IMG/VR virus record: IMGVR_UViG_3300010339_000002
Location: 5,329-69,328 of that record
DNA: 64,000 nt
Source: a virus
Strand: one strand, 5' to 3'
In this document: in pieces, positions 7,142 through 54,687 of the stretch
Position numbering within the stretch: position 1 is the stretch's first letter
How the letters are laid out: each line of letters begins with the position of its first letter
Position numbers and translations under genes: made by a program
Notes under the pieces: generated by a model
The model's database searches: none
What the model was told of the DNA's origin: nothing
Seen by the model: only the letters and a program-made list of their open reading frames with translations

Positions 7142-7966
7142 TCAGCGTACAGTTTTGTCATTGACATCGGCAGGATTTCCTCCGTCGTTAGCCCATCTGT
7201 CGGCGTCGTCCACTGGTTCTGGTTCGACTTCAGGAATGATAATCGGGCCGCGGTCGGAGGCCCATTCCTGCAATTCCTCCAGCGTGTAGAATCCCCACTT
7301 GTTTCTGTTTTGGTCATACGGATTCAGCGAGTATAGGACACTGCCGTCTTCCTGACGCCGGGGAGACAGGCCGAAATAGCGTTTGCCCTTTTCTTTCAAG
7401 AGCGCCTCGATCCCCGACTTTTCCATCTCCTCAAGCAAATCGTGCCGATCCTTGTCGGCATCATACCATCCGTCCCGGATGGATTGGGGAATCCGGTCAG
7501 CGATAAGGAGACACAAGCCGGGATTCTCAATGCCCATACCCTTAACGAAGGTGATGACTCCGTTCTTTTTCTGGAATTCGCCGTAGAGTTCCCAGATGAA
7601 TTTCTTTTCCGCGGGGTCGTCCGATACAACGCCAAAGCTGGCTTCGTCCCATGCTGCCCGCAGGCTTGTTCGGTCTATTTTCCTTTTTCTGAGTTCATCG
7701 GCATACTCCAGCATCAAATCGCCGTAACACAAGTAATAGAGTCCGTATGTTTGGTCAGGAGTGAAGTCGAATTCTTTAAGCCCCGGCGGCACCCGGCGAA
7801 TGATGCGGCGGTCGATGCCGAATACCGTGGGTTCGCGGTTCAGGTCAAAGGCATTCGCAAGGCCAGCGATGCCCCATTCGTGCTCCGAACAGAAGTCGGA
7901 ACCCAAACCGACGCCGAAGGTCGCTGAATCCAGCACCACTAGTTTTGGGCTTTGTCCCCGGATCAT
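7142..7966 (-). CDS. hypothetical phage protein
   Basis: 274-aa ORF in coupled chain. Confidence 0.7.
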   Translation of the reverse strand: MIRGQSPKLVVLDSATFGVGLGSDFCSEHEWGIAGLANAFDLNREPTVFGIDRRIIRRVPPGLKEFDFTPDQTYGLYYLCYGDLMLEYADELRKRKIDRTSLRAAWDEASFGVVSDDPAEKKFIWELYGEFQKKNGVITFVKGMGIENPGLCLLIADRIPQSIRDGWYDADKDRHDLLEEMEKSGIEALLKEKGKRYFGLSPRRQEDGSVLYSLNPYDQNRNKWGFYTLEELQEWASDRGPIIIPEVEPEPVDDADRWANDGGNPADVNDKTVR

Positions 7967-27985: not shown

Positions 27986-28066
27986 TGGGGGGCGTGGCGG
28001 GACTCGAACCCGCATTTTCAGTCCAGTTAAAGGCTACGGTTTAGAAGACCGCGTTTCTACACGCCC
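27986..28066 (-). tRNA. D-armless tRNA-Arg(TCT)-like gene with long variable region
   Basis: acceptor GGGCGTG/CACGCCC, 7-nt linker, GCGGT-CT TCT AA-ACCGT, T arm, CCA. Confidence 0.7.
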
Positions 28067-28714: not shown

Positions 28715-29056
28715 AGCCGTTGCTAACGAGCGCAAAGTCGTTCTTACACTCTCTCGCGTTCAGTGAGGGCTCAACATCCGCCCGTCAACGCTACTGAGCC
28801 AGCAACGGCAAATTCACACAAAACCGAGAATCCTGCGATCCGTGGCCACGGACTCTCAACCGCAGGAGAAGGGACAAGAGAGCTTCCCCGCCCAAACGCC
28901 TGTACTAAGCGCCTCGGGCTTTAGCCGGAGCCCGAGAGCCCCGACGAATTCCATACGGGGGAGGGCCTCCACAATGCCCTCCCCCGTCCTAGCCATCGTC
29001 CTCGCCGGGCGGCGATCCCGATGGTCCGGCTCAACTCAGACCTTCTGTTGAGCCGA
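28715..29056 (-). ncRNA. candidate large structured ncRNA within tRNA operon
   Basis: about 340 nt without convincing ORF and at least six strong hairpins. Confidence 0.5.
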
Positions 29057-29072
29057 TCTCATGAACATCGAC

Positions 29073-31078: not shown

Positions 31079-31154
31079 TGGTGCGCCCGGAGAGAGTCGA
31101 ACTCTCGACCTTGGGCTTAAGAGGCCCCTGCTCTACCAATTGAGCTACGAGCGC
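31079..31154 (-). tRNA. tRNA-Lys(CTT)
   Basis: GGGGC-CT CTT AA-GCCCA; CCA. Confidence 0.9.
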
Positions 31155-31196
31155 ACTTTACTACAGTACCACATTCCCGACCTTCGTCGGGAAACT

Positions 31197-31271
31197 TGGT
31201 GGGTCTGCCGAGACTCGAACTCGGGTTCCATCCTTAAGAGGGATGTCTTCTCGCCGCTGAATTACGGACCC
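31197..31271 (-). tRNA. tRNA-Lys(CTT)
   Basis: CATCC-CT CTT AA-GGATG; CCA. Confidence 0.88.
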
Positions 31272-31277
31272 AAAATC

Positions 31278-31352
31278 TGGCTCCTCGGGAGGGGATCGAA
31301 CCCCCGACCATTCGGTTAACAGCCGACCGCTCTACCGCTGAGCTACCGAGGA
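31278..31352 (-). tRNA. tRNA-Asn(GTT)
   Basis: canonical TCCTCGG acceptor; GTCGG-CT GTT AA-CCGAA. Confidence 0.92.
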
Positions 31353-31363
31353 ACTGAAACTCT

Positions 31364-31510
31364 TTACCGCAACTTCCGTATCTCCGCCACAACGCTATCT
31401 TCCAAATGCTTGATCGCCGCCGTTATGGCCTTGGCGCTTCGCGCTTCCAAGAAGTGGTCCATGACAGCGCCCAAAACAAAGCTTCCTATAACCGCGATGA
31501 CCGTACCCAT
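31364..31510 (-). CDS. 48-aa single-pass membrane protein in tRNA operon
   Basis: SD GGGAG; MGTVIAVIGSFVLGAVMDH... Confidence 0.55.
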   Translation of the reverse strand: MGTVIAVIGSFVLGAVMDHFLEARSAKAITAAIKHLEDSVVAEIRKLR

Positions 31511-31526
31511 AGTCTCCCTTCAAACT

Positions 31527-31602
31527 TGGCTGGGGCGGTAGGATTTGAACCTACACCGTCTCGGGTAACAACCGAGCGTCCTGCCAGTTGGACCACGCCC
31601 CA
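31527..31602 (-). tRNA. tRNA-Asn(GTT), divergent copy
   Basis: CTCGG-TT GTT AC-CCGAG; TGGGGCG acceptor; G73 CCA. Confidence 0.85.
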
Positions 31603-31607
31603 AAACT

Positions 31608-31683
31608 TGGCTGGGAGAGCAGGACTCGAACCTGCAACCTTGCGGATCAGAGCCGCCTGCGCTACCAATTGCGCCATCTCCCA
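31608..31683 (-). tRNA. tRNA-Gln(CTG)
   Basis: GGCGG-CT CTG AT-CCGCA; U1-A72; CCA. Confidence 0.9.
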
Positions 31684-31687
31684 AAAC

Positions 31688-31773
31688 TGGAACGGGTGAC
31701 AGGACTCGAACCTGCATTCCCCGAAGGGCTAGGCGTTCGTAGCGCCCGTGGCGTCCATTGCCGTCACACCCGC
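31688..31773 (-). tRNA. tRNA with ACG (Arg) anticodon and long variable arm
   Basis: GGGCG-CT ACG AA-CGCCT; variable hairpin CCC-TTCG-GGG; U73. Confidence 0.75.
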
Positions 31774-31778
31774 AAATC

Positions 31779-31857
31779 TGGTGACCCTAGTGGGACTCGA
31801 ACCCACGACCTCTTCCTTCGGATGGAAGCGCTCTAAATCCAACTGAGCTACAGGGTC
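31779..31857 (-). tRNA. tRNA-Arg(CCG)
   Basis: CTTCC-AT CCG AA-GGAAG; CCA. Confidence 0.9.
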
Positions 31858-31902
31858 AAACTCTTGGGCCAGTGTACTTGATCGTTAGACGACCTCCCGA
31901 CT

Positions 31903-31940
31903 TGGTGGGGAGGGCGGGATTTTTACCCGCATTTCTGGCC
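31903..31940 (-). pseudogene. tRNA 3-prime fragment (T arm + acceptor strand + ACCA)
   Basis: GCGGG-TAAAAAT-CCCGC-CCTCCCC-ACCA with no 5-prime half. Confidence 0.5.
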
Positions 31941-31946
31941 CTAATC

Positions 31947-32023
31947 TGGTGCGCCCGGAGGGATTCGAACCCCCAGTCTTTGCGTTCGTAGCGCAACATC
32001 CTGATCCGTTGAACGACGGGCGC
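31947..32023 (-). tRNA. tRNA-Arg(ACG)
   Basis: TTGCG-CT ACG AA-CGCAA; GCGCCCG acceptor; CCA. Confidence 0.9.
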
Positions 32024-32075
32024 GTAATCTGCTTGTAACGGCCCAGCATAAAATGCTTGTGCTGGCCCAAAACCT

Positions 32076-32152
32076 TGGGGTGGGAGATGAGGTTCGAACT
32101 CACATCCTTCGGTGCCACAGACCGACGCTCCACCAGTTGAGCTACTCCCACC
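32076..32152 (-). tRNA. tRNA-His(GTG)
   Basis: TCGGT-CT GTG GC-ACCGA; encoded G-1 and C73. Confidence 0.92.
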
Positions 32153-32163
32153 ACTACAAAAAC

Positions 32164-32243
32164 TGGGGTGACGGGCGGGAATCGAACCCGCGAGACCACG
32201 GTTTCACAGACCGGGAAGACATCCCAACAGTCATCACCGTCAC
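32164..32243 (-). tRNA. atypical tRNA-His(GTG)
   Basis: GTG anticodon, C73, intact acceptor and T arm; aberrant D arm, no G-1. Confidence 0.65.
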
Positions 32244-32283
32244 ACTCTGCGTGCCCGGCTGACTCACGGGTACGACTTAAACT

Positions 32284-32358
32284 TGGCAGGGGAGGAGGGA
32301 CTCGAACCCCCGTAGCTGGTTTTGGAGACCAGAGTCCTAGCCGCTGGACGACTCCCCT
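32284..32358 (-). tRNA. tRNA-Trp(CCA)
   Basis: CTGGT-CT CCA AA-ACCAG; AGGGG acceptor; G73. Confidence 0.92.
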
Positions 32359-32397
32359 AAAACAAAAAACCCGCCGAACCTTCTCGGTCAGCGGGTC
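32359..32397 (-). terminator. intrinsic terminator (attenuator) directly upstream of first tRNA
   Basis: GACCCGCTGACC-GAGAA-GGTTCGGCGGG then TTTTTTGTTTT. Confidence 0.85.
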
Positions 32398-32423
32398 TGG
32401 AATTCTTGGATTGGAGATTTGAT

Positions 32424-32558
32424 CTACGTTACGATCACTCCATCGAAGAACGGACCCGCCGCGGTATTCCACCGCTGGCCGTCGCCCTGATGCTTTCGGG
32501 CGGCTCTCGTCGAATTGGATTTCCTGAAGGTCATGTTCTTAACCACAATACTGCGCAT
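32424..32558 (-). CDS. attenuator leader peptide, Arg/Lys/Asn/His/Gln/Trp-rich (44 aa)
   Basis: MRSIVVKNMTFRKSNSTRAARKHQGDGQRWNTAAGPFFDGVIVT*; alternative in-frame ATG at 32534. Confidence 0.75.
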   Translation of the reverse strand: MRSIVVKNMTFRKSNSTRAARKHQGDGQRWNTAAGPFFDGVIVT

Positions 32559-32562
32559 CTAC

Positions 32563-32590
32563 ATAATACACCAGACAGCGGGAAAATCAA
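32563..32590 (-). promoter_or_regulatory. sigma70-like promoter of tRNA operon
   Basis: TTGATT-N16-TATTAT. Confidence 0.6.
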
Positions 32591-36990: not shown

Positions 36991-37971
36991 TTAGCTTTTT
37001 TCTTTGGCATCAGCCTTTTCCTTCTCGTAAAGCTCCATGGCCACCTTGACCATCTCCCGCTCGACCCATTTTTGGTCTTCCCATTCCTTGATGGCTCCCG
37101 GATTCGCTTTGCAGTGCTCCGATATCCACCATGTTGACGCGGAGAACGCCTTGCTGATAATCCGCAAGACCGCATTGCTTTGGTTCCAGACCGTCTCCTG
37201 CGCGGCGGTCACGATGTCACTGACCTTGCCGAGATCAACCGCTGGGGGCAAGCCGGAAGCCAGCCGGGCAGCTTCGAGTCGGGTGAAAAGTTCCTGTGCG
37301 ATCTCTTCAATGTCCCTCAGGGTTCCGGCTTTACCCTTCCGGATGTCAATCAGGTGCTCCCTTTCGGGGCGGGGTAGCGTGATCCTGCCCGTCTGCATAA
37401 GCTCAATGCCCTCGTTGAGCACGCGGACCAGATGCATGGCCGCCTTAGTATCGTAGCCAAACTCGGCGATCAAATCCAGCCGCTTCCCCCGCTTGCCCTG
37501 CCCCTCGCCCTTGAGCGTGCGGAGCATGTGCTCGCAGAACTTTTGGAAATGCAGCCCGGCGTGGGAACTCAGGAACACGGGGATATTCGGCGTGACGAAG
37601 TGCTCCCAGATGTCGCTCTTGGGTGCGAGGTTGTTTACGAACATGAACTCGATGGCGCTCGGGTTGCCGGATGTTGCCATCTTCGCCCACTTGCGGAGGG
37701 AGTACATGTTCATGTCGATGTCCCCCGCATTGTTGCGCACCTTGTCTCCCGCCGTGCTCCAGACCCAGTGCTCGTCCACGCCGCGGACGCCGACGATCTC
37801 TTCCAGCGGCGGGACGTATACGCCAAGCAGGTCGAAATCGCTTTTGTTTTCTAGCTTCACGCCGTGCGCTGCGGACCCGCCGATGAAGAGGTGGACGGTT
37901 TCGCCCAAGTACGGATAGTCGGTGTTTTGGACGATCAGTTCGTAGATTTCTGGCGCTTGACGAGGAACCAT
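36991..37971 (-). CDS. Pol-beta superfamily nucleotidyltransferase (YcgL/RlaP-like, RNA-repair associated)
   Basis: GGSAAHG....SDFD..GVY, GNPSAIE, GYDTKAAMHLVR. Confidence 0.85.
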   Translation of the reverse strand: MVPRQAPEIYELIVQNTDYPYLGETVHLFIGGSAAHGVKLENKSDFDLLGVYVPPLEEIVGVRGVDEHWVWSTAGDKVRNNAGDIDMNMYSLRKWAKMATSGNPSAIEFMFVNNLAPKSDIWEHFVTPNIPVFLSSHAGLHFQKFCEHMLRTLKGEGQGKRGKRLDLIAEFGYDTKAAMHLVRVLNEGIELMQTGRITLPRPEREHLIDIRKGKAGTLRDIEEIAQELFTRLEAARLASGLPPAVDLGKVSDIVTAAQETVWNQSNAVLRIISKAFSASTWWISEHCKANPGAIKEWEDQKWVEREMVKVAMELYEKEKADAKEKS

Positions 37972-52954: not shown

Positions 52955-53224
52955 TCAGTCACGGGGGTCGTCCTCATAGAACGCCAAGGCCGTTTCGCTG
53001 CCTGCGGGAACTTCCGTGAATCCGGCGTCCGTAACCGCGTAGCAATCCGGATGGGCGGCCTTGGCCTCCTCGAACTTCGCATCGCTGACATCCAGCGTCA
53101 CGCACGAGAAGTACTCCGTGGAGCAGAGCTTGTACAGGCCGAGGGCGGCGTGCACGCACTGGGCACGGGATTTGCCGCAAGTCATTTTCAGGTTGCGCCT
53201 GACCAGAATCTTAATCCTCTTCAT
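52955..53224 (-). CDS. peptidyl-tRNA hydrolase 2
   Basis: ILVRRNLKMTCGK..AQCVHAA...DAGFTEVPAGSETALA. Confidence 0.9.
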   Translation of the reverse strand: MKRIKILVRRNLKMTCGKSRAQCVHAALGLYKLCSTEYFSCVTLDVSDAKFEEAKAAHPDCYAVTDAGFTEVPAGSETALAFYEDDPRD

Positions 53225-53497
53225 CGTAGAAATCTCCGTAATCAAAATCGTCAGGCTTTCCCCGTCTCACCCAGTCGTCATACCCCGCTTTGTAGGCCAC
53301 CGCTTCGTCATAGTGGTCGGCGCAAACAAATTCCGCGTAGTTATAGATCGTGCCTTTCACCAACCCGCCCGGGTCGTACGAGGGGTTGCGGAACTTGGCA
53401 AGCTTGAAGCAGCCGATCCGGCATTTCTCGCAGCTTACGCTACAATCGCACGGACCCTTGAAGATTTGGACATCGCAGAAATGTTCTTCCACGCGGA

Positions 53498-53854
53498 TTA
53501 CCCGCTTCCGGCACAAATACAGTCGCTAGACAGCGCCTTGATGACCTTTAAGTAGCTCTTACCCCCCACATCCGGCTGCAAGGCTTTCAACAAGGTGACG
53601 GGCTTGCTAAGGATAAAAGCCATGCCAAGATCAAAATGACTGCCCTTTGAGTCAACATCCCACACAATGCCAACCGCATCGCACTCGCGCATTGCCTTGG
53701 CGTGGGCATTGCAGATATCGATACCCACAGGGTCGGATTGGTCAACATCTCTCGGCGGAAAGTGGACGGTATGCCCCCCATCTTCTAGCTGTCGTACAAT
53801 TCCTGCGGAATCAAAGGACGCGTTCCGAACTGGGCAAATCAAATATATTTTCAT
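53498..53854 (-). CDS. nucleoside 2-deoxyribosyltransferase-like protein
   Basis: KIYLICP...HFPPRD...CDAV...SKGSHFDLGMA. Confidence 0.7.
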   Translation of the reverse strand: MKIYLICPVRNASFDSAGIVRQLEDGGHTVHFPPRDVDQSDPVGIDICNAHAKAMRECDAVGIVWDVDSKGSHFDLGMAFILSKPVTLLKALQPDVGGKSYLKVIKALSSDCICAGSG

Positions 53855-54017: not shown

Positions 54018-54109
54018 TGGCGGACGGAGAGAGAGTTGAACTCCCAACGGGCTTTTAGACCCGTAACCGTTTTCGAGACGGCCGGACTTGCCAATGTACC
54101 AACCCGTCC
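54018..54109 (-). tRNA. tRNA-Ser(CGA)
   Basis: GCCGT-CT CGA AA-ACGGT; long variable arm; G73 CCA. Confidence 0.9.
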
Positions 54110-54114
54110 AAATC

Positions 54115-54208
54115 TGGAGGAGAGGAGCGGAATCGAACCCCTAATCCGCCATCTCTGACGGATAGCTGTTTTCAAGACAGCCGGACCTGCCAATGTACCA
54201 ACCTCTCC
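54115..54208 (-). tRNA. tRNA-Ser(TGA)
   Basis: GCTGT-CT TGA AA-ACAGC; long variable arm; U73. Confidence 0.88.
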
Positions 54209-54213
54209 AAAAC

Positions 54214-54303
54214 TGGCGGAGACGGTGAGATTCGAACTCACGGCACCCTTTCGAGTACACATGCTTTCCAAGCATGCGCCTTAGGCCGCTCGGCCACGTC
54301 TCC
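54214..54303 (-). tRNA. tRNA-Ser(GGA)
   Basis: CATGC-TT GGA AA-GCATG; long variable arm; G73. Confidence 0.92.
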
Positions 54304-54310
54304 TAAAACT

Positions 54311-54403
54311 TGGTAGTCCCGGAGGGATTCGAACCCCCAATCACGCCCCAATCTAGGGCTTGCGGTGTATAAGGCCGCTGTTTTACCGTTAAACTACGGG
54401 ACT
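54311..54403 (-). tRNA. tRNA-Ile(TAT) with long variable arm
   Basis: AGTCCCG/CGGGACT acceptor, A73; loop CT TAT AC; variable hairpin GCCC-TAGATTG-GGGC. Confidence 0.75.
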
Positions 54404-54412
54404 ACTTAAACT

Positions 54413-54504
54413 TGGCGGAGTGTGCTGGATTCGAACCAGCGGTCCCCCTTTCGAGGGACGGCGGTTTAGCAAACCGCTGGGTTAAGCCTCTCCCCCAACA
54501 CTCC
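54413..54504 (-). tRNA. tRNA-Ser(GCT)
   Basis: GCGGT-TT GCT AA-ACCGC; long variable arm; G73. Confidence 0.92.
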
Positions 54505-54506
54505 GT

Positions 54507-54544
54507 AAAAACAAAAAAGCCGCCGAACCCTTTGGGCTGGCGGC
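54507..54544 (-). terminator. intrinsic terminator (attenuator) directly upstream of first Ser tRNA
   Basis: GCCGCCAGCCC-AAA-GGGTTCGGCGGC then TTTTTTGTTTTT. Confidence 0.88.
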
Positions 54545-54567
54545 GCTTACTGCCTCTGTGTGCTCGC

Positions 54568-54651
54568 TTAGTCTGTCGTGTAGACACGCACACCGCCGCC
54601 TGCCCCTGAGGAGCTACTAGATGACGACGATATGCGAACGATGTATCCCAT
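54568..54651 (-). CDS. attenuator leader peptide with Ser8 run (27 aa)
   Basis: MGYIVRISSSSSSSSGAGGGVRVYTTD*; codons ATA TCG TCG TCA TCT AGT AGC TCC TCA. Confidence 0.88.
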   Translation of the reverse strand: MGYIVRISSSSSSSSGAGGGVRVYTTD

Positions 54652-54657
54652 GTCTAT

Positions 54658-54687
54658 ATAATACCGCGGTAGCGGGTATTTTGGCTA
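54658..54687 (-). promoter_or_regulatory. repeated phage promoter variant driving Ser leader
   Basis: TAGCCAAAATACCCGCTACCGCGGTATTAT-N6-ATG. Confidence 0.8.

What the first reader, a model, noticed from the sequence alone, without database searches (positions are those of the whole stretch)
54018..54687. Serine-sensing leader-peptide attenuator controlling a phage tRNA-Ser operon
Seen (minus strand), in order: promoter 54658-54687; leaderless ORF 54651-54568 MGYIVRISSSSSSSSGAGGGVRVYTTD, with codons ATA TCG TCG TCA TCT AGT AGC TCC TCA (eight consecutive Ser using all six Ser codons, preceded by the rare Ile ATA); an intrinsic terminator (54544-54507) ending 2 nt before the first tRNA; then Ser(GCT), Ile(TAT), Ser(GGA), Ser(TGA), Ser(CGA), exactly the tRNAs that read those codons. 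The leader segment GGCGGCG-GTGTGC (54600-54588) can pair with GCACAC (54563-54558) and with CGCCGCC (54545-54539, the 5-prime arm of the terminator), giving a mutually exclusive antiterminator with the stop codon inside it. Established: this is the trp/his/thr/pheST attenuator layout. Inference: stalling on any Ser codon or ATA frees the antiterminator, so the phage transcribes tRNAs only when that decoding capacity is lacking (starvation or host anticodon-nuclease defence). I do not know of attenuation described for tRNA genes.
Basis: partly seen in the sequence, partly recalled or inferred. Interest (0 to 1): 0.96.

Follow-up and report, generated by a model that had tools for sequence, protein, structure and literature searches.

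The report
Leader-peptide attenuator gating phage tRNA-Ser array
A giant soil phage puts its serine tRNA genes behind a tiny test gene made of serine codons and wired to a switchable transcription stop, so it probably makes these tRNAs only when ribosomes read serine codons slowly.

Summary
On the minus strand lie a phage-type promoter, an ATG 6 nt after its -10, and a 27-codon ORF with ATA plus eight Ser codons (all six Ser codons). A -19.8 kcal/mol hairpin with a T-run ends 2 nt before five tRNAs that read exactly those codons. The Ser run is the only amino-acid run of 8 or more in six frames of the 69-kb contig.

The attenuator reading is supported. Alternative 1:2, 2:3 and 3:4 helices exist as in trp or his leaders. 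A second cassette in the window (32558-32359) has a codon for each of the 7 anticodons of its array. A distant 463-kb relative has six such cassettes, each matched to its own array. Seven distinct Ser-leader homologues keep all three helices, with compensatory changes. Swapping leaders and terminators weakens the pairing (permutation P=5e-5).

Weak points: no RNA data exist, so translation and termination are not shown. Equilibrium folds always favour the terminator, so any switch must be kinetic. 2 of 14 cassettes lack a clear terminator.

Five literature searches found no attenuation of tRNA genes in print. This scan had already noted the same kind of cassette on other phage DNA. I class it as a new variant of a known kind, of high interest.

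The parts
54658..54687 (-). Promoter: non-canonical -35 region TAGCCA(AAAT) and -10 TATTAT (54663-54658)
   Evidence: One search finds a 9/12 match. One search shows it is one of 10 copies of a phage promoter family; in 8 of the 10 an ATG lies 6 nt after the -10. Function is not shown.
54568..54651 (-). Leader ORF, 27 codons plus TAA, leaderless or nearly so (ATG 6 nt after the -10)
   Evidence: Translation is not shown.
54607..54633 (-). Regulatory codons: ATA (54633-54631) plus eight Ser codons using all six Ser codons
   Evidence: the only run of 8 or more in the contig; all 5 of 5 array anticodons have a codon here.
54623..54636 (-). Segment 1 (CGCATATCGTCGTC). It pairs with segment 2 to form the anti-antiterminator hairpin.
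   Evidence: the 1:2 hairpin is -25.5 kcal/mol. An equivalent helix exists in 7 of 7 Ser homologues.
54587..54600 (-). Segment 2 (GGCGGCGGTGTGCG), the Gly/Val/Arg codons just after the Ser run. It pairs either with segment 1 or with segment 3.
54558..54563 (-). GCACAC, the inner part of the antiterminator. It pairs with GTGTGC of segment 2 and lies 5 nt after the stop codon.
   Evidence: truncated-RNA folds
54534..54545 (-). Segment 3 (CGCCGCCAGCCC): the 5' arm of the terminator and the 3' partner of the antiterminator
   Evidence: duplex with segment 2 -26.9 kcal/mol; 0 of 300 shuffles as good
54507..54530 (-). Segment 4 (GGGTTCGGCGGC, 54530-54519) plus the T-run TTTTTTGTTTTT (54518-54507)
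   Evidence: hairpin -19.8 kcal/mol; the 22-nt 3' half recurs only once more in the window, before the other array.
54018..54504 (-). Regulated tRNA array: Ser(gct), tRNA(tat), Ser(gga), Ser(tga), Ser(cga)
52955..53854 (-). Same-strand genes just downstream: a 118-aa protein (53854-53498) and a PTH2 peptidyl-tRNA hydrolase (53245-52955). They may be co-transcribed.
   Evidence: PF01981 E=1.1e-11; PF05014 scores below its cut-off. Co-transcription is not shown.
32359..32590 (-). Second, paralogous cassette: promoter, 44-codon leader ORF 32558-32424, then a terminator and T-run running from about 32397 to 32359
31079..32358 (-). Array behind the second cassette: Trp, His x2, Arg(acg) x2, Arg(ccg), Gln, Asn x2, Lys(ctt) x2

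Best explanation
This is a ribosome-mediated (leader-peptide) transcription attenuator that gates a phage tRNA array.

Proposed mechanism:
- Transcription starts at or just before the ATG at 54651, and a ribosome translates the 27-codon leader.
- If ATA and the Ser codons are decoded fast, the ribosome runs on to the TAA. Segment 2 re-pairs with segment 1 behind it, or is covered by it. The hairpin at 54545-54519 then forms and RNA polymerase stops at the T-run, 2 nt before the first tRNA.
- If decoding of any of these codons is slow, the ribosome stalls on segment 1. Segment 2 is then free to pair with GCACAC and the terminator's 5' arm. The terminator cannot form, and polymerase reads into the five tRNA genes that decode exactly those codons.
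- The result is negative feedback on decoding capacity: tRNAs are made on demand.

Status of each step:
- Shown by sequence: the layout, the codon-anticodon match, the three alternative helices, and their conservation and co-variation.
- Inferred: translation of the leader, the direction of the switch, and the physiological trigger (host tRNA loss, host shut-off or starvation).
For: (1) Anatomy. ORF, codons, hairpin and tRNAs are as described.

(2) Start codon. The ATG sits 6 nt after the -10, as in 8 of 10 copies of this phage's promoter family.

(3) Helices in the window: 1:2 -25.5, 2:3 -32.5, 3:4 -19.8 kcal/mol.
- The free full-length leader folds as 1:2 plus 3:4, the terminated state.
- RNA cut before the 3' arm forms 2:3 when a modelled ribosome has its A site on ATA through Ser5. 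It forms 1:2 with a free segment 3 when the ribosome is at the stop codon.

(4) Internal replicate. The array at 32358 has the same promoter motif, and the same 22-nt terminator half occurs nowhere else in the window. Its leader has a codon for 7 of 7 array anticodons (P=0.046).

(5) Relatives not found through leader sequence. The 463-kb G001 was found via DNA ligase at 50% identity. It has six cassettes: Ser(+TTA), Trp/His/Arg/Asn/Gln/Lys, Val/Gly/Ala/Asp/Cys/Glu, Tyr/Leu/Phe, Pro/Met/Phe and Thr/Ile/Gln.
- In a 5 x 5 leader-by-array matrix the own array gives the highest enrichment in 5 of 5 columns and 4 of 5 rows.
- G002 has two more cassettes.

(6) Codon statistics.
- Enrichment, binomial P: window Ser 3.7e-4, G001 Ser 6.9e-5, Val 1.2e-3, Pro 3.9e-3, Thr 6.4e-7, G002 Trp 3.2e-5.
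- Anticodon coverage: 5/5, 7/7, 5/5, 9/10, 11/12, 6/6, 5/6, 6/6, 7/8 and 6/6.
- Fisher combined P is 8.7e-8 for the first nine of these. It is 3.5e-5 for the seven cassettes not ascertained by a leader pattern, the Thr cassette (6/6) among them.

(7) Ser-leader homologues. Seven distinct full-length ones exist.
- The peptides differ, but all keep six Ser codons.
- A TTA codon is present in the 6 distinct leaders from lineages that carry Leu(taa). That tRNA was seen in 4 of the 6; the other two contigs end or show none. TTA is absent from the window, which has no Leu(taa).

(8) Antiterminator.
- In 12 of 12 cassettes tested, the best ORF-to-terminator-arm duplex lies just 3' of the regulatory codons. 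Energies are -15 to -27 kcal/mol and the shuffle fraction is 0.067 or lower.
- L048 changed its terminator arm to GCCATCAG, and its leader carries CTGATGGC.
- Cognate leader/terminator pairs beat swapped pairs: sum -221.4 against -183.2 +/- 8.3, P=5e-5; the cognate leader ranks 1-2 of 11 in 10 of 11.

(9) The 1:2 helix is present in 7 of 7 Ser homologues, with shuffle fractions 0.003-0.03.
Against: - No RNA evidence. No listed run holding this DNA is on record as RNA, so translation, the 3' end at 54507 and regulated read-through are untested.
- With the full-length RNA, the terminator is predicted at about 0.85 probability for every modelled ribosome position. The switch cannot be read from equilibrium folding and must be kinetic.
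- A cruder measure across homologues did not separate 'stalled' from 'at stop'.
- In the second cassette the simple footprint model gives the antiterminator in most states, including at the stop codon.
- The window's second leader is not significantly enriched by the plain binomial test (P=0.10).
- 2 of 14 distinct cassettes (G001 Pro/Met/Phe and G002 Trp-type) have no hairpin plus T-run between leader and tRNAs.
- The leaders have no Shine-Dalgarno sequence.
- A second promoter-like site inside the leader (54656-54627) could give transcripts that lack the ATG.
- Method limits: leader ORFs were picked by eye in upstream regions. The Ser homologues were found with patterns that fix ATA and four Ser codons. 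They are related, so they are not independent. The shuffles were mononucleotide.
Confidence: 0.75

Rival explanations
1. The cassette is a real switch but is not read by ribosomes. It is an RNA-only or factor-dependent antiterminator, for example direct tRNA binding in T-box fashion or a phage antitermination protein. On this view the ORF is incidental.
For: The alternative helices exist whether or not the ORF is translated. The leaders have no Shine-Dalgarno sequence. There are no expression data.
Against: - The codon content of 14 leaders follows the anticodons of their own arrays, in frame with an ATG. An untranslated RNA has no reason to do this.
- Changes among homologues within the Ser run are synonymous Ser codons or TTA, with one TAT.
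- No T-box or any other Rfam family matches the leader at E<=1.
- The ATG spacing is the same as at the phage's protein-gene promoters.
Confidence: 0.07
2. The leader is an independent micro-gene or small RNA with its own terminator. Its product could be a micropeptide, a trans-acting attenuated RNA or a translational decoy. The tRNAs are then expressed simply by constitutive leak-through or from an unrecognised start.
For: - The terminator is strong and always favoured at equilibrium.
- 2 of 14 cassettes lack a terminator.
- In G001 small protein ORFs sit between terminator and tRNAs in two cassettes.
- A promoter-like site lies inside the leader.
Against: - The peptide sequences are not conserved apart from codon class.
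- The T-run ends 2 nt before the tRNA, so there is no room for a separate promoter after it.
- A conserved, co-varying antiterminator that overlaps the terminator arm has no role in a plain terminator.
Confidence: 0.1
3. The switch works with the opposite sign or senses general translation capacity rather than these codons. For example, a close-following ribosome could be needed to prevent termination, so that stalling lowers tRNA output.
For: - The footprint model for the second cassette is ambiguous.
- In the G002 Trp-type leader, read by eye and not scored, the only hairpin near the stop codon overlaps the last codons.
Against: - In the window the stop codon lies 23 nt before the terminator's 5' arm, too far for a terminating ribosome to melt it.
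- The regulatory codons sit in segment 1 and the antiterminator partner lies just 3' of them in 12 of 12 cassettes. That is the geometry of stall-induced read-through.
Confidence: 0.06
4. Chance: an accidental short ORF rich in Ser codons next to an ordinary terminator.
For: The promoter-like match alone is not above chance.
Against: - It is the only amino-acid run of 8 or more in the contig, and 0 of 200 simulations gave one.
- The design recurs in 14 cassettes, with combined coverage P=8.7e-8 for nine of them.
- Leader/terminator co-variation has P=5e-5.
Confidence: 0.02

Closest known systems
Leader-peptide attenuators of amino-acid operons (trpL, hisL, leuL, pheL; multivalent thrL and ilvGMEDA leaders). 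Recalled textbook knowledge; related papers seen only as listings.
   Same: A promoter-proximal short ORF with a run of regulatory codons. Segments 1-4 give mutually exclusive 1:2, 2:3 and 3:4 helices, followed by an intrinsic terminator with a T-run. The peptide is free to drift while the codon class is kept. The second cassette and the G001 cassettes are multivalent, like thr and ilv.
   Different: The regulated products are tRNA genes, not enzymes, so the output directly replaces the sensed molecule. The system is phage-encoded. The leader mRNA is leaderless or nearly so. One phage carries up to six parallel cassettes, which together cover most amino acids. The leader is not a sequence member of any Rfam leader family.
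pheST (phenylalanyl-tRNA synthetase) attenuator of E. coli (recalled, not read here)
   Same: Leader-peptide attenuation applied to a component of the translation apparatus rather than to biosynthesis.
   Different: It controls a synthetase protein, uses one amino acid, and is chromosomal.
T-box riboswitches
   Same: A terminator/antiterminator decision that reports on the state of a specific tRNA.
   Different: A T-box binds uncharged tRNA directly, without a ribosome, and has a conserved Stem I, specifier loop and T-box sequence. No such match was found here.
Inducible trn tRNA array of Anabaena sp. PCC 7120 (PMC8421152, passages read; PMC10272220, abstract read)
   Same: A supernumerary tRNA array that is silent by default and is induced when translation is impaired.
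   Different: Control there acts at the promoter, through direct repeats bound by the repressor TrcR. 'Attenuat', 'leader peptide' and 'terminator' occur 0 times in PMC8421152. It is cellular, not phage.
Phage tRNAs as an answer to tRNA-targeting host defences (PMC10264068; title and start of abstract seen in the listing)
   Same: It gives a plausible reason for a phage to carry, and to time, its own tRNAs.
   Different: It concerns tRNA sequence escape. From what I saw it describes no codon-matched leader or attenuator. The full text was not read.

Membership tests
Ribosome-mediated (leader-peptide) transcription attenuator | Short ORF directly behind the promoter with a usable start codon | tested here: met
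   ORF 54651-54568. Its ATG lies 6 nt after the -10, as in 8 of 10 copies of the phage promoter family. Translation itself is not shown.
Ribosome-mediated (leader-peptide) transcription attenuator | Run or enrichment of codons that correspond to the regulated product | tested here: met
   ATA plus 8 Ser codons. 9 of 26 codons are cognate against a background of 0.093, P=3.7e-4. 5 of 5 anticodons are covered, P=0.027. It is the only run of 8 or more in the contig.
Ribosome-mediated (leader-peptide) transcription attenuator | Intrinsic terminator between the leader ORF and the regulated genes | tested here: met
   A -19.8 kcal/mol hairpin plus TTTTTTGTTTTT ends 2 nt before the tRNA. The simple scan missed it because of a bulge. 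Across relatives, 12 of 14 cassettes have one.
Ribosome-mediated (leader-peptide) transcription attenuator | Antiterminator that is mutually exclusive with the terminator and uses the 3' part of the leader ORF | tested here: met
   54600-54587 pairs with 54563-54558 and 54545-54534 at -26.9 kcal/mol; 0 of 300 shuffles are as good. 12 of 12 cassettes have one. Cognate beats swapped pairs, P=5e-5. In silico only.
Ribosome-mediated (leader-peptide) transcription attenuator | Anti-antiterminator (1:2) hairpin that contains the regulatory codons | tested here: met
   54636-54623 pairs with 54600-54587 at -25.5 kcal/mol. Present in 7 of 7 Ser homologues, with shuffle fractions 0.003-0.03.
Ribosome-mediated (leader-peptide) transcription attenuator | A ribosome position decides which helix forms | tested here: inconclusive
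   Truncated-RNA folds fit the model in the window. Full-length equilibrium folds always give the terminator. A cruder measure across homologues, and the second cassette, do not discriminate.
Ribosome-mediated (leader-peptide) transcription attenuator | Read-through rises when the regulatory codons are decoded slowly | not testable with these tools
   No run on record as RNA holds the locus. The phage is uncultured, and the nearest cultured ligase relatives are at most about 32% identical.
T-box riboswitch | Match to the T-box covariance model (Stem I, specifier loop, T-box sequence) | tested here: not met
   No Rfam match on 54505-54660 at E<=1 other than the tRNAs downstream.
Curated Rfam leader families of amino-acid operons | Sequence and structure match to a curated leader model | tested here: not met
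   No match at E<=1 on either leader. Only tRNAs are found at gathering score in the whole window.
Repressor-controlled inducible tRNA array (Anabaena trn/TrcR) | Tandem direct repeats over the -10 and start site, bound by an RHH repressor | not tested
   I searched for neither a TrcR homologue nor such repeats. The paper's mechanism was read.

The most novel reading that the evidence does not exclude
The cassettes form a modular, codon-addressed sensing network. A giant phage measures the cell's decoding capacity codon family by codon family, with a set of interchangeable leader modules: the same promoter, terminator and 3' end, with the sensing codons swapped. It switches on only the tRNA block that is running short. 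This would let it ride out host tRNA cleavage by anticodon nucleases, or the decay of the host pool after shut-off. In G001 six such modules cover most of the amino acids.

A further, bolder possibility is that the class-II-shaped tRNA(UAU) co-monitored by the ATA codon is not an ordinary isoleucine tRNA.
Probability: 0.45. Interest if true: 0.93.

Novelty: new variant of a known kind. Interest (0 to 1): 0.86.

Why it matters
Why phages carry tRNAs, and how they time them, has been argued for decades. Here the control element itself states what is being measured: the decoding speed of exactly the codons that the downstream tRNAs read. If it works as the sequence implies, four things follow.

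- It extends classical attenuation from amino-acid supply to tRNA supply.
- It gives the first cis-regulatory logic for phage tRNA arrays.
- It explains why arrays in these giant phages are sorted by amino acid.
- It offers compact, re-addressable sensors of codon-specific translation capacity.

The idea is directly testable with a 200-nt fragment in a reporter or in a reconstituted transcription-translation system.

Tried and rejected
- RNA evidence: the look-up of sequencing runs listed 2 holders, both DNA, with no RNA holder. Read laying was therefore not used, and nothing can be said about expression.
- Synteny search with neighbouring proteins. The 118-aa protein gave 2 loci with no tRNAs. 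The 189-aa and 986-aa proteins gave no relatives.
- The exact 22-nt terminator half gave 0 hits in viral contigs.
- blastn of the region against cultured phages gave only tRNA-level matches covering 12% of the query or less. tblastn with the ligase found nothing above about 32% identity, so there is no cultured relative to test in.
- Pattern scans returned chance hits, which I dropped before counting. These were 11 of 15 viral loci without tRNAs, 3 of 11 metagenome loci (L055, L056, L063), and the single genome-contig hit (L066). L043 is a different architecture and is reported under Noticed in passing; it is not counted as a homologue.
- The MAFFT alignment of the eight Ser leaders (A2) misaligned the terminators because of indels. 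I therefore used neither count of structure pairs nor RNAalifold, and scored helices per sequence instead.
- The footprint measure (any pairing of the 5' arm) was too crude and is not used as support.
- A tRNA(UAU) homologue was not found in the Ser arrays of G001, L058, L060 or L062. Only a 23-nt match turned up, at the end of L061. Conservation of the ATA codon is therefore partly explained by the search pattern and by the 1:2 helix (CGCAUAU with GUGUGCG).
- Supplementary files of papers were not opened. They could hold leader annotations that I did not see.
Full report
WHAT IS THERE.

On the minus strand the sequence reads, in order:
- a -35-like TAGCCA (54687-54682);
- a -10 TATTAT (54663-54658);
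- six bases, then ATG at 54651;
- a 27-codon ORF, MGYIVRISSSSSSSSGAGGGVRVYTTD, ending with TAA at 54570-54568;
- a bulged hairpin GCCGCCAGCCC-AAA-GGGTTCGGCGGC (54544-54519, -19.8 kcal/mol);
- TTTTTTGTTTTT (54518-54507), then two bases;
- tRNA-Ser(gct), tRNA(tat), Ser(gga), Ser(tga) and Ser(cga), running from 54504 to 54018.

The regulatory stretch is ATA TCG TCG TCA TCT AGT AGC TCC TCA. Each of the five anticodons has a cognate codon in it.

The tool's simple scans are weak here. The promoter-like match is not above chance, and a second equal match lies inside the leader. The terminator scan missed the bulged hairpin.

The promoter is nevertheless one of ten copies of a phage-specific motif. 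In eight of the ten, an ATG follows the -10 by exactly six bases. Leaderless starts therefore look like the rule for this phage.

The Ser run is the only run of eight or more identical residues in any frame of the 69,328-bp contig. It did not arise in any of 200 Markov simulations.

THE SWITCH.

The free leader folds (-56 kcal/mol, z=-2.65) into two hairpins:
- Hairpin 1:2 pairs the first regulatory codons (CGCAUAUCGUCGUC, 54636-54623) with GGCGGCGGUGUGCG (54600-54587).
- Hairpin 3:4 is the terminator.

Segment 2 can instead pair with GCACAC (54563-54558) and with CGCCGCC of the terminator's 5' arm. The energies are 1:2 -25.5, 2:3 -32.5 and 3:4 -19.8 kcal/mol.

I folded RNA cut before the 3' arm, as it would be while polymerase is deciding. 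A 30-nt ribosome footprint with its A site on ATA through Ser5 gives the antiterminator. A ribosome at the stop codon gives 1:2 with segment 3 left free.

Against this, with the complete RNA the terminator is predicted at about 0.85 for every ribosome position. The decision must therefore be kinetic, as in the classical cases, and cannot be proven by folding. The same model is ambiguous for the second cassette. A cruder measure across homologues was uninformative.

REPLICATION INSIDE THE WINDOW.

The array at 32358-31079 (Trp, His, Arg, Gln, Asn, Lys) is preceded by three shared elements:
- the same CCCGCT...GTATTAT promoter motif (2 matches in the window, 0 expected);
- a 44-codon ORF;
- a terminator whose 22-nt 3' half is the only other copy of the Ser cassette's.

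Its leader contains CGA AAG CAT CAG ... CAG CGG TGG AAT, that is, one codon for each of the 7 distinct anticodons (P=0.046). It also holds AGG, AAA and AGA, which are read by the tRNAs of the third array further downstream.

Plain enrichment is not significant: 12 of 43 codons, P=0.10.

RELATIVES.

No cultured phage is close. Through the NAD ligase (50% identity) I reached G001, a 463-kb virus record with 69 tRNA matches. Its arrays have the same order as the window's. Six of them are headed by a short ORF written in the amino acids of the array:

| Leader peptide | Array behind it |
|---|---|
| MNRISSLSSSSSSFGG... | Ser x4 + Leu(taa) |
| MTSMKHNTVARKQWRNRRHD... | Trp/His/Arg/Asn/Gln/Cys/Lys |
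| ...AVATTGGVVCAGEAGTVAAGAAVED... | Val/Gly/Ala/Asp/Cys/Glu |
| MNRVSLSLSLLYSLLSG... | Tyr/Leu/Phe |
| MNLMRPFTMFRPCMPTM... | Pro/Gln/Met/Phe |
| MKQTQTTRTTTTQRITIT... | Ile/Thr/Gln |

A 5 x 5 matrix of leaders against arrays puts the own array on top in 5 of 5 columns and 4 of 5 rows. A third phage, G002, has a Ser leader and a Trp-type leader, MIFRQHNTNQIGGHKHPANRQWRKR.

Pattern scans found further Ser leaders. After dropping chance hits there are seven distinct full-length homologues and one truncated.
- The peptides differ, but all keep every one of the six Ser codons. Only four of these are fixed by the search pattern.
- A TTA codon sits in the run in the lineages whose array includes Leu(taa). 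It is absent in the window, which has no such tRNA.

Coverage of anticodons by leader codons is 5/5, 7/7, 5/5, 9/10, 11/12, 6/6, 5/6, 6/6, 7/8 and 6/6. Fisher combined P is 8.7e-8 for the first nine. It is 3.5e-5 for the seven cassettes that were not ascertained through leader sequence, the Thr cassette (6/6) among them.

CO-VARIATION OF THE HELICES.

In 12 of 12 cassettes with a terminator, the most stable duplex between the ORF and the terminator's 5' arm lies just 3' of the regulatory codons. Energies are -15 to -27 kcal/mol, and the fraction of 300 shuffles as good is 0 to 0.067.

Where the terminator arm changed, the leader changed with it:
- L048: GCCATCAG with CTGATGGC.
- L058: CTCGCC with GGCGAG.
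- The Trp-type cassette of the window: GACCCGCTG with GCGGCGGGTC.

In an 11 x 11 matrix, cognate leader/terminator pairs sum to -221.4 kcal/mol against -183.2 +/- 8.3 for permuted pairs (P=5e-5). The cognate leader ranks first or second for 10 of 11 arms. The 1:2 helix is found in 7 of 7 Ser homologues.

Caveats: the Ser homologues are related, the shuffles are mononucleotide, and I chose the leader ORFs by eye.

EXCEPTIONS.

Two of 14 distinct cassettes have no hairpin plus T-run between leader and tRNAs. These are the G001 Pro/Met/Phe cassette and the G002 Trp-type cassette; the latter has three tandem repeats of about 35 nt instead. In two G001 cassettes small protein ORFs lie between terminator and tRNAs.

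COMPARISON WITH WHAT IS KNOWN.

The design is that of the trp/his/thr/ilv leader-peptide attenuators, and the multi-amino-acid leaders resemble the multivalent thr and ilv leaders (recalled knowledge).

It is not a member of any curated RNA family. Rfam gives nothing on either leader at E<=1, and no T-box.

Five full-text searches found no report of attenuation acting on tRNA genes. The nearest case in print is the inducible trn array of Anabaena. That array is controlled at the promoter by the repressor TrcR. I read passages of PMC8421152, where 'attenuat', 'leader peptide' and 'terminator' occur 0 times, and the abstract of PMC10272220.

Those are AI notes, not independent evidence. I re-tested the ones on this window.

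VERDICT.

My confidence is 0.75 that this is a ribosome-read attenuator whose read-through rises when ATA or Ser codons are decoded slowly. The trigger (host tRNA cleavage, host shut-off or starvation) remains open. I class it as a new variant of a known kind, with interest 0.86.

Noticed in passing
window 54311-54404 (-): The AUA-reading tRNA(UAU) has unusual features. It has a class-II-like variable arm (93 nt in all), discriminator A73, a 4-bp D stem and a C-A mismatch at the end of the anticodon stem. A homologue sits in the G002/L064 array. Its amino-acid identity (Ile, Leu-like or other) is open.
   Followed up: partly
window 27989-28066 (-): An aberrant tRNA with anticodon UCU (Arg AGA) and an odd D region. 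ARAGORN does not call it. Rfam tRNA scores 36.8 bits (gathering 29). AGA occurs in the second leader.
   Followed up: partly
window 3574, 4607, 9453, 15545, 16806, 18696, 47728, 54658, 58779, 63853 (all -): Ten copies of a phage promoter motif: TAGC-AAAA-C-rich, spacer, then TGTATACT or TATTAT. In 8 of the 10 an ATG lies exactly 6 nt after the -10, which implies leaderless mRNAs.
   Followed up: yes
L037 3312-3632 (G001): A bacterial class A RNase P RNA gene (208 bits, gathering 100) sits inside the tRNA array of the 463-kb relative. None was found in the window.
   Followed up: yes
L036 5248-5566 (G001); L065 5981-6055 (G002): G001 has three tRNAs with anticodon CTA (readers of TAG). G002 has one with TCA (a reader of TGA). 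This hints at stop-codon recoding in these relatives. All six G001 leaders end in TAA.
   Followed up: no
L043 4352-4375 and 4677-4700 (54-kb virus record G003): A different architecture. An ATG followed by seven Ser codons runs straight into tRNA-Ser(gct), with no terminator. An ATG ... TAT TAT CGC abuts a tRNA-like sequence with anticodon GTA that neither ARAGORN nor Rfam calls. This may be a second way of coupling translation of cognate codons to a tRNA gene.
   Followed up: partly
window 52955-53245 (-) and 36991-37971 (-): A PTH2 peptidyl-tRNA hydrolase lies just downstream of the Ser array; G001 has a similar ORF after its Ser array. There is also an RlaP RNA-repair nucleotidyltransferase. 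Together with the tRNAs these suggest a translation-rescue and RNA-repair gene set.
   Followed up: partly
window 32442-32424 (-) and L036 about 3850-3832: The window's Trp-type leader and G001's Thr/Ile/Gln leader share the same last residues (DGVIVT, then stop) and similar DNA. This suggests that the cassettes are paralogous modules whose sensing codons were exchanged.
   Followed up: no
L065 about 7150-7255 (G002): Three tandem copies of a motif of about 35 nt lie directly 5' of tRNA-Trp, where the other cassettes have a terminator.
   Followed up: no
window 28720-29070 (-): A GC-rich stretch with several hairpins lies upstream of the third tRNA array. It has no leader ORF and no Rfam match.
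   Followed up: no
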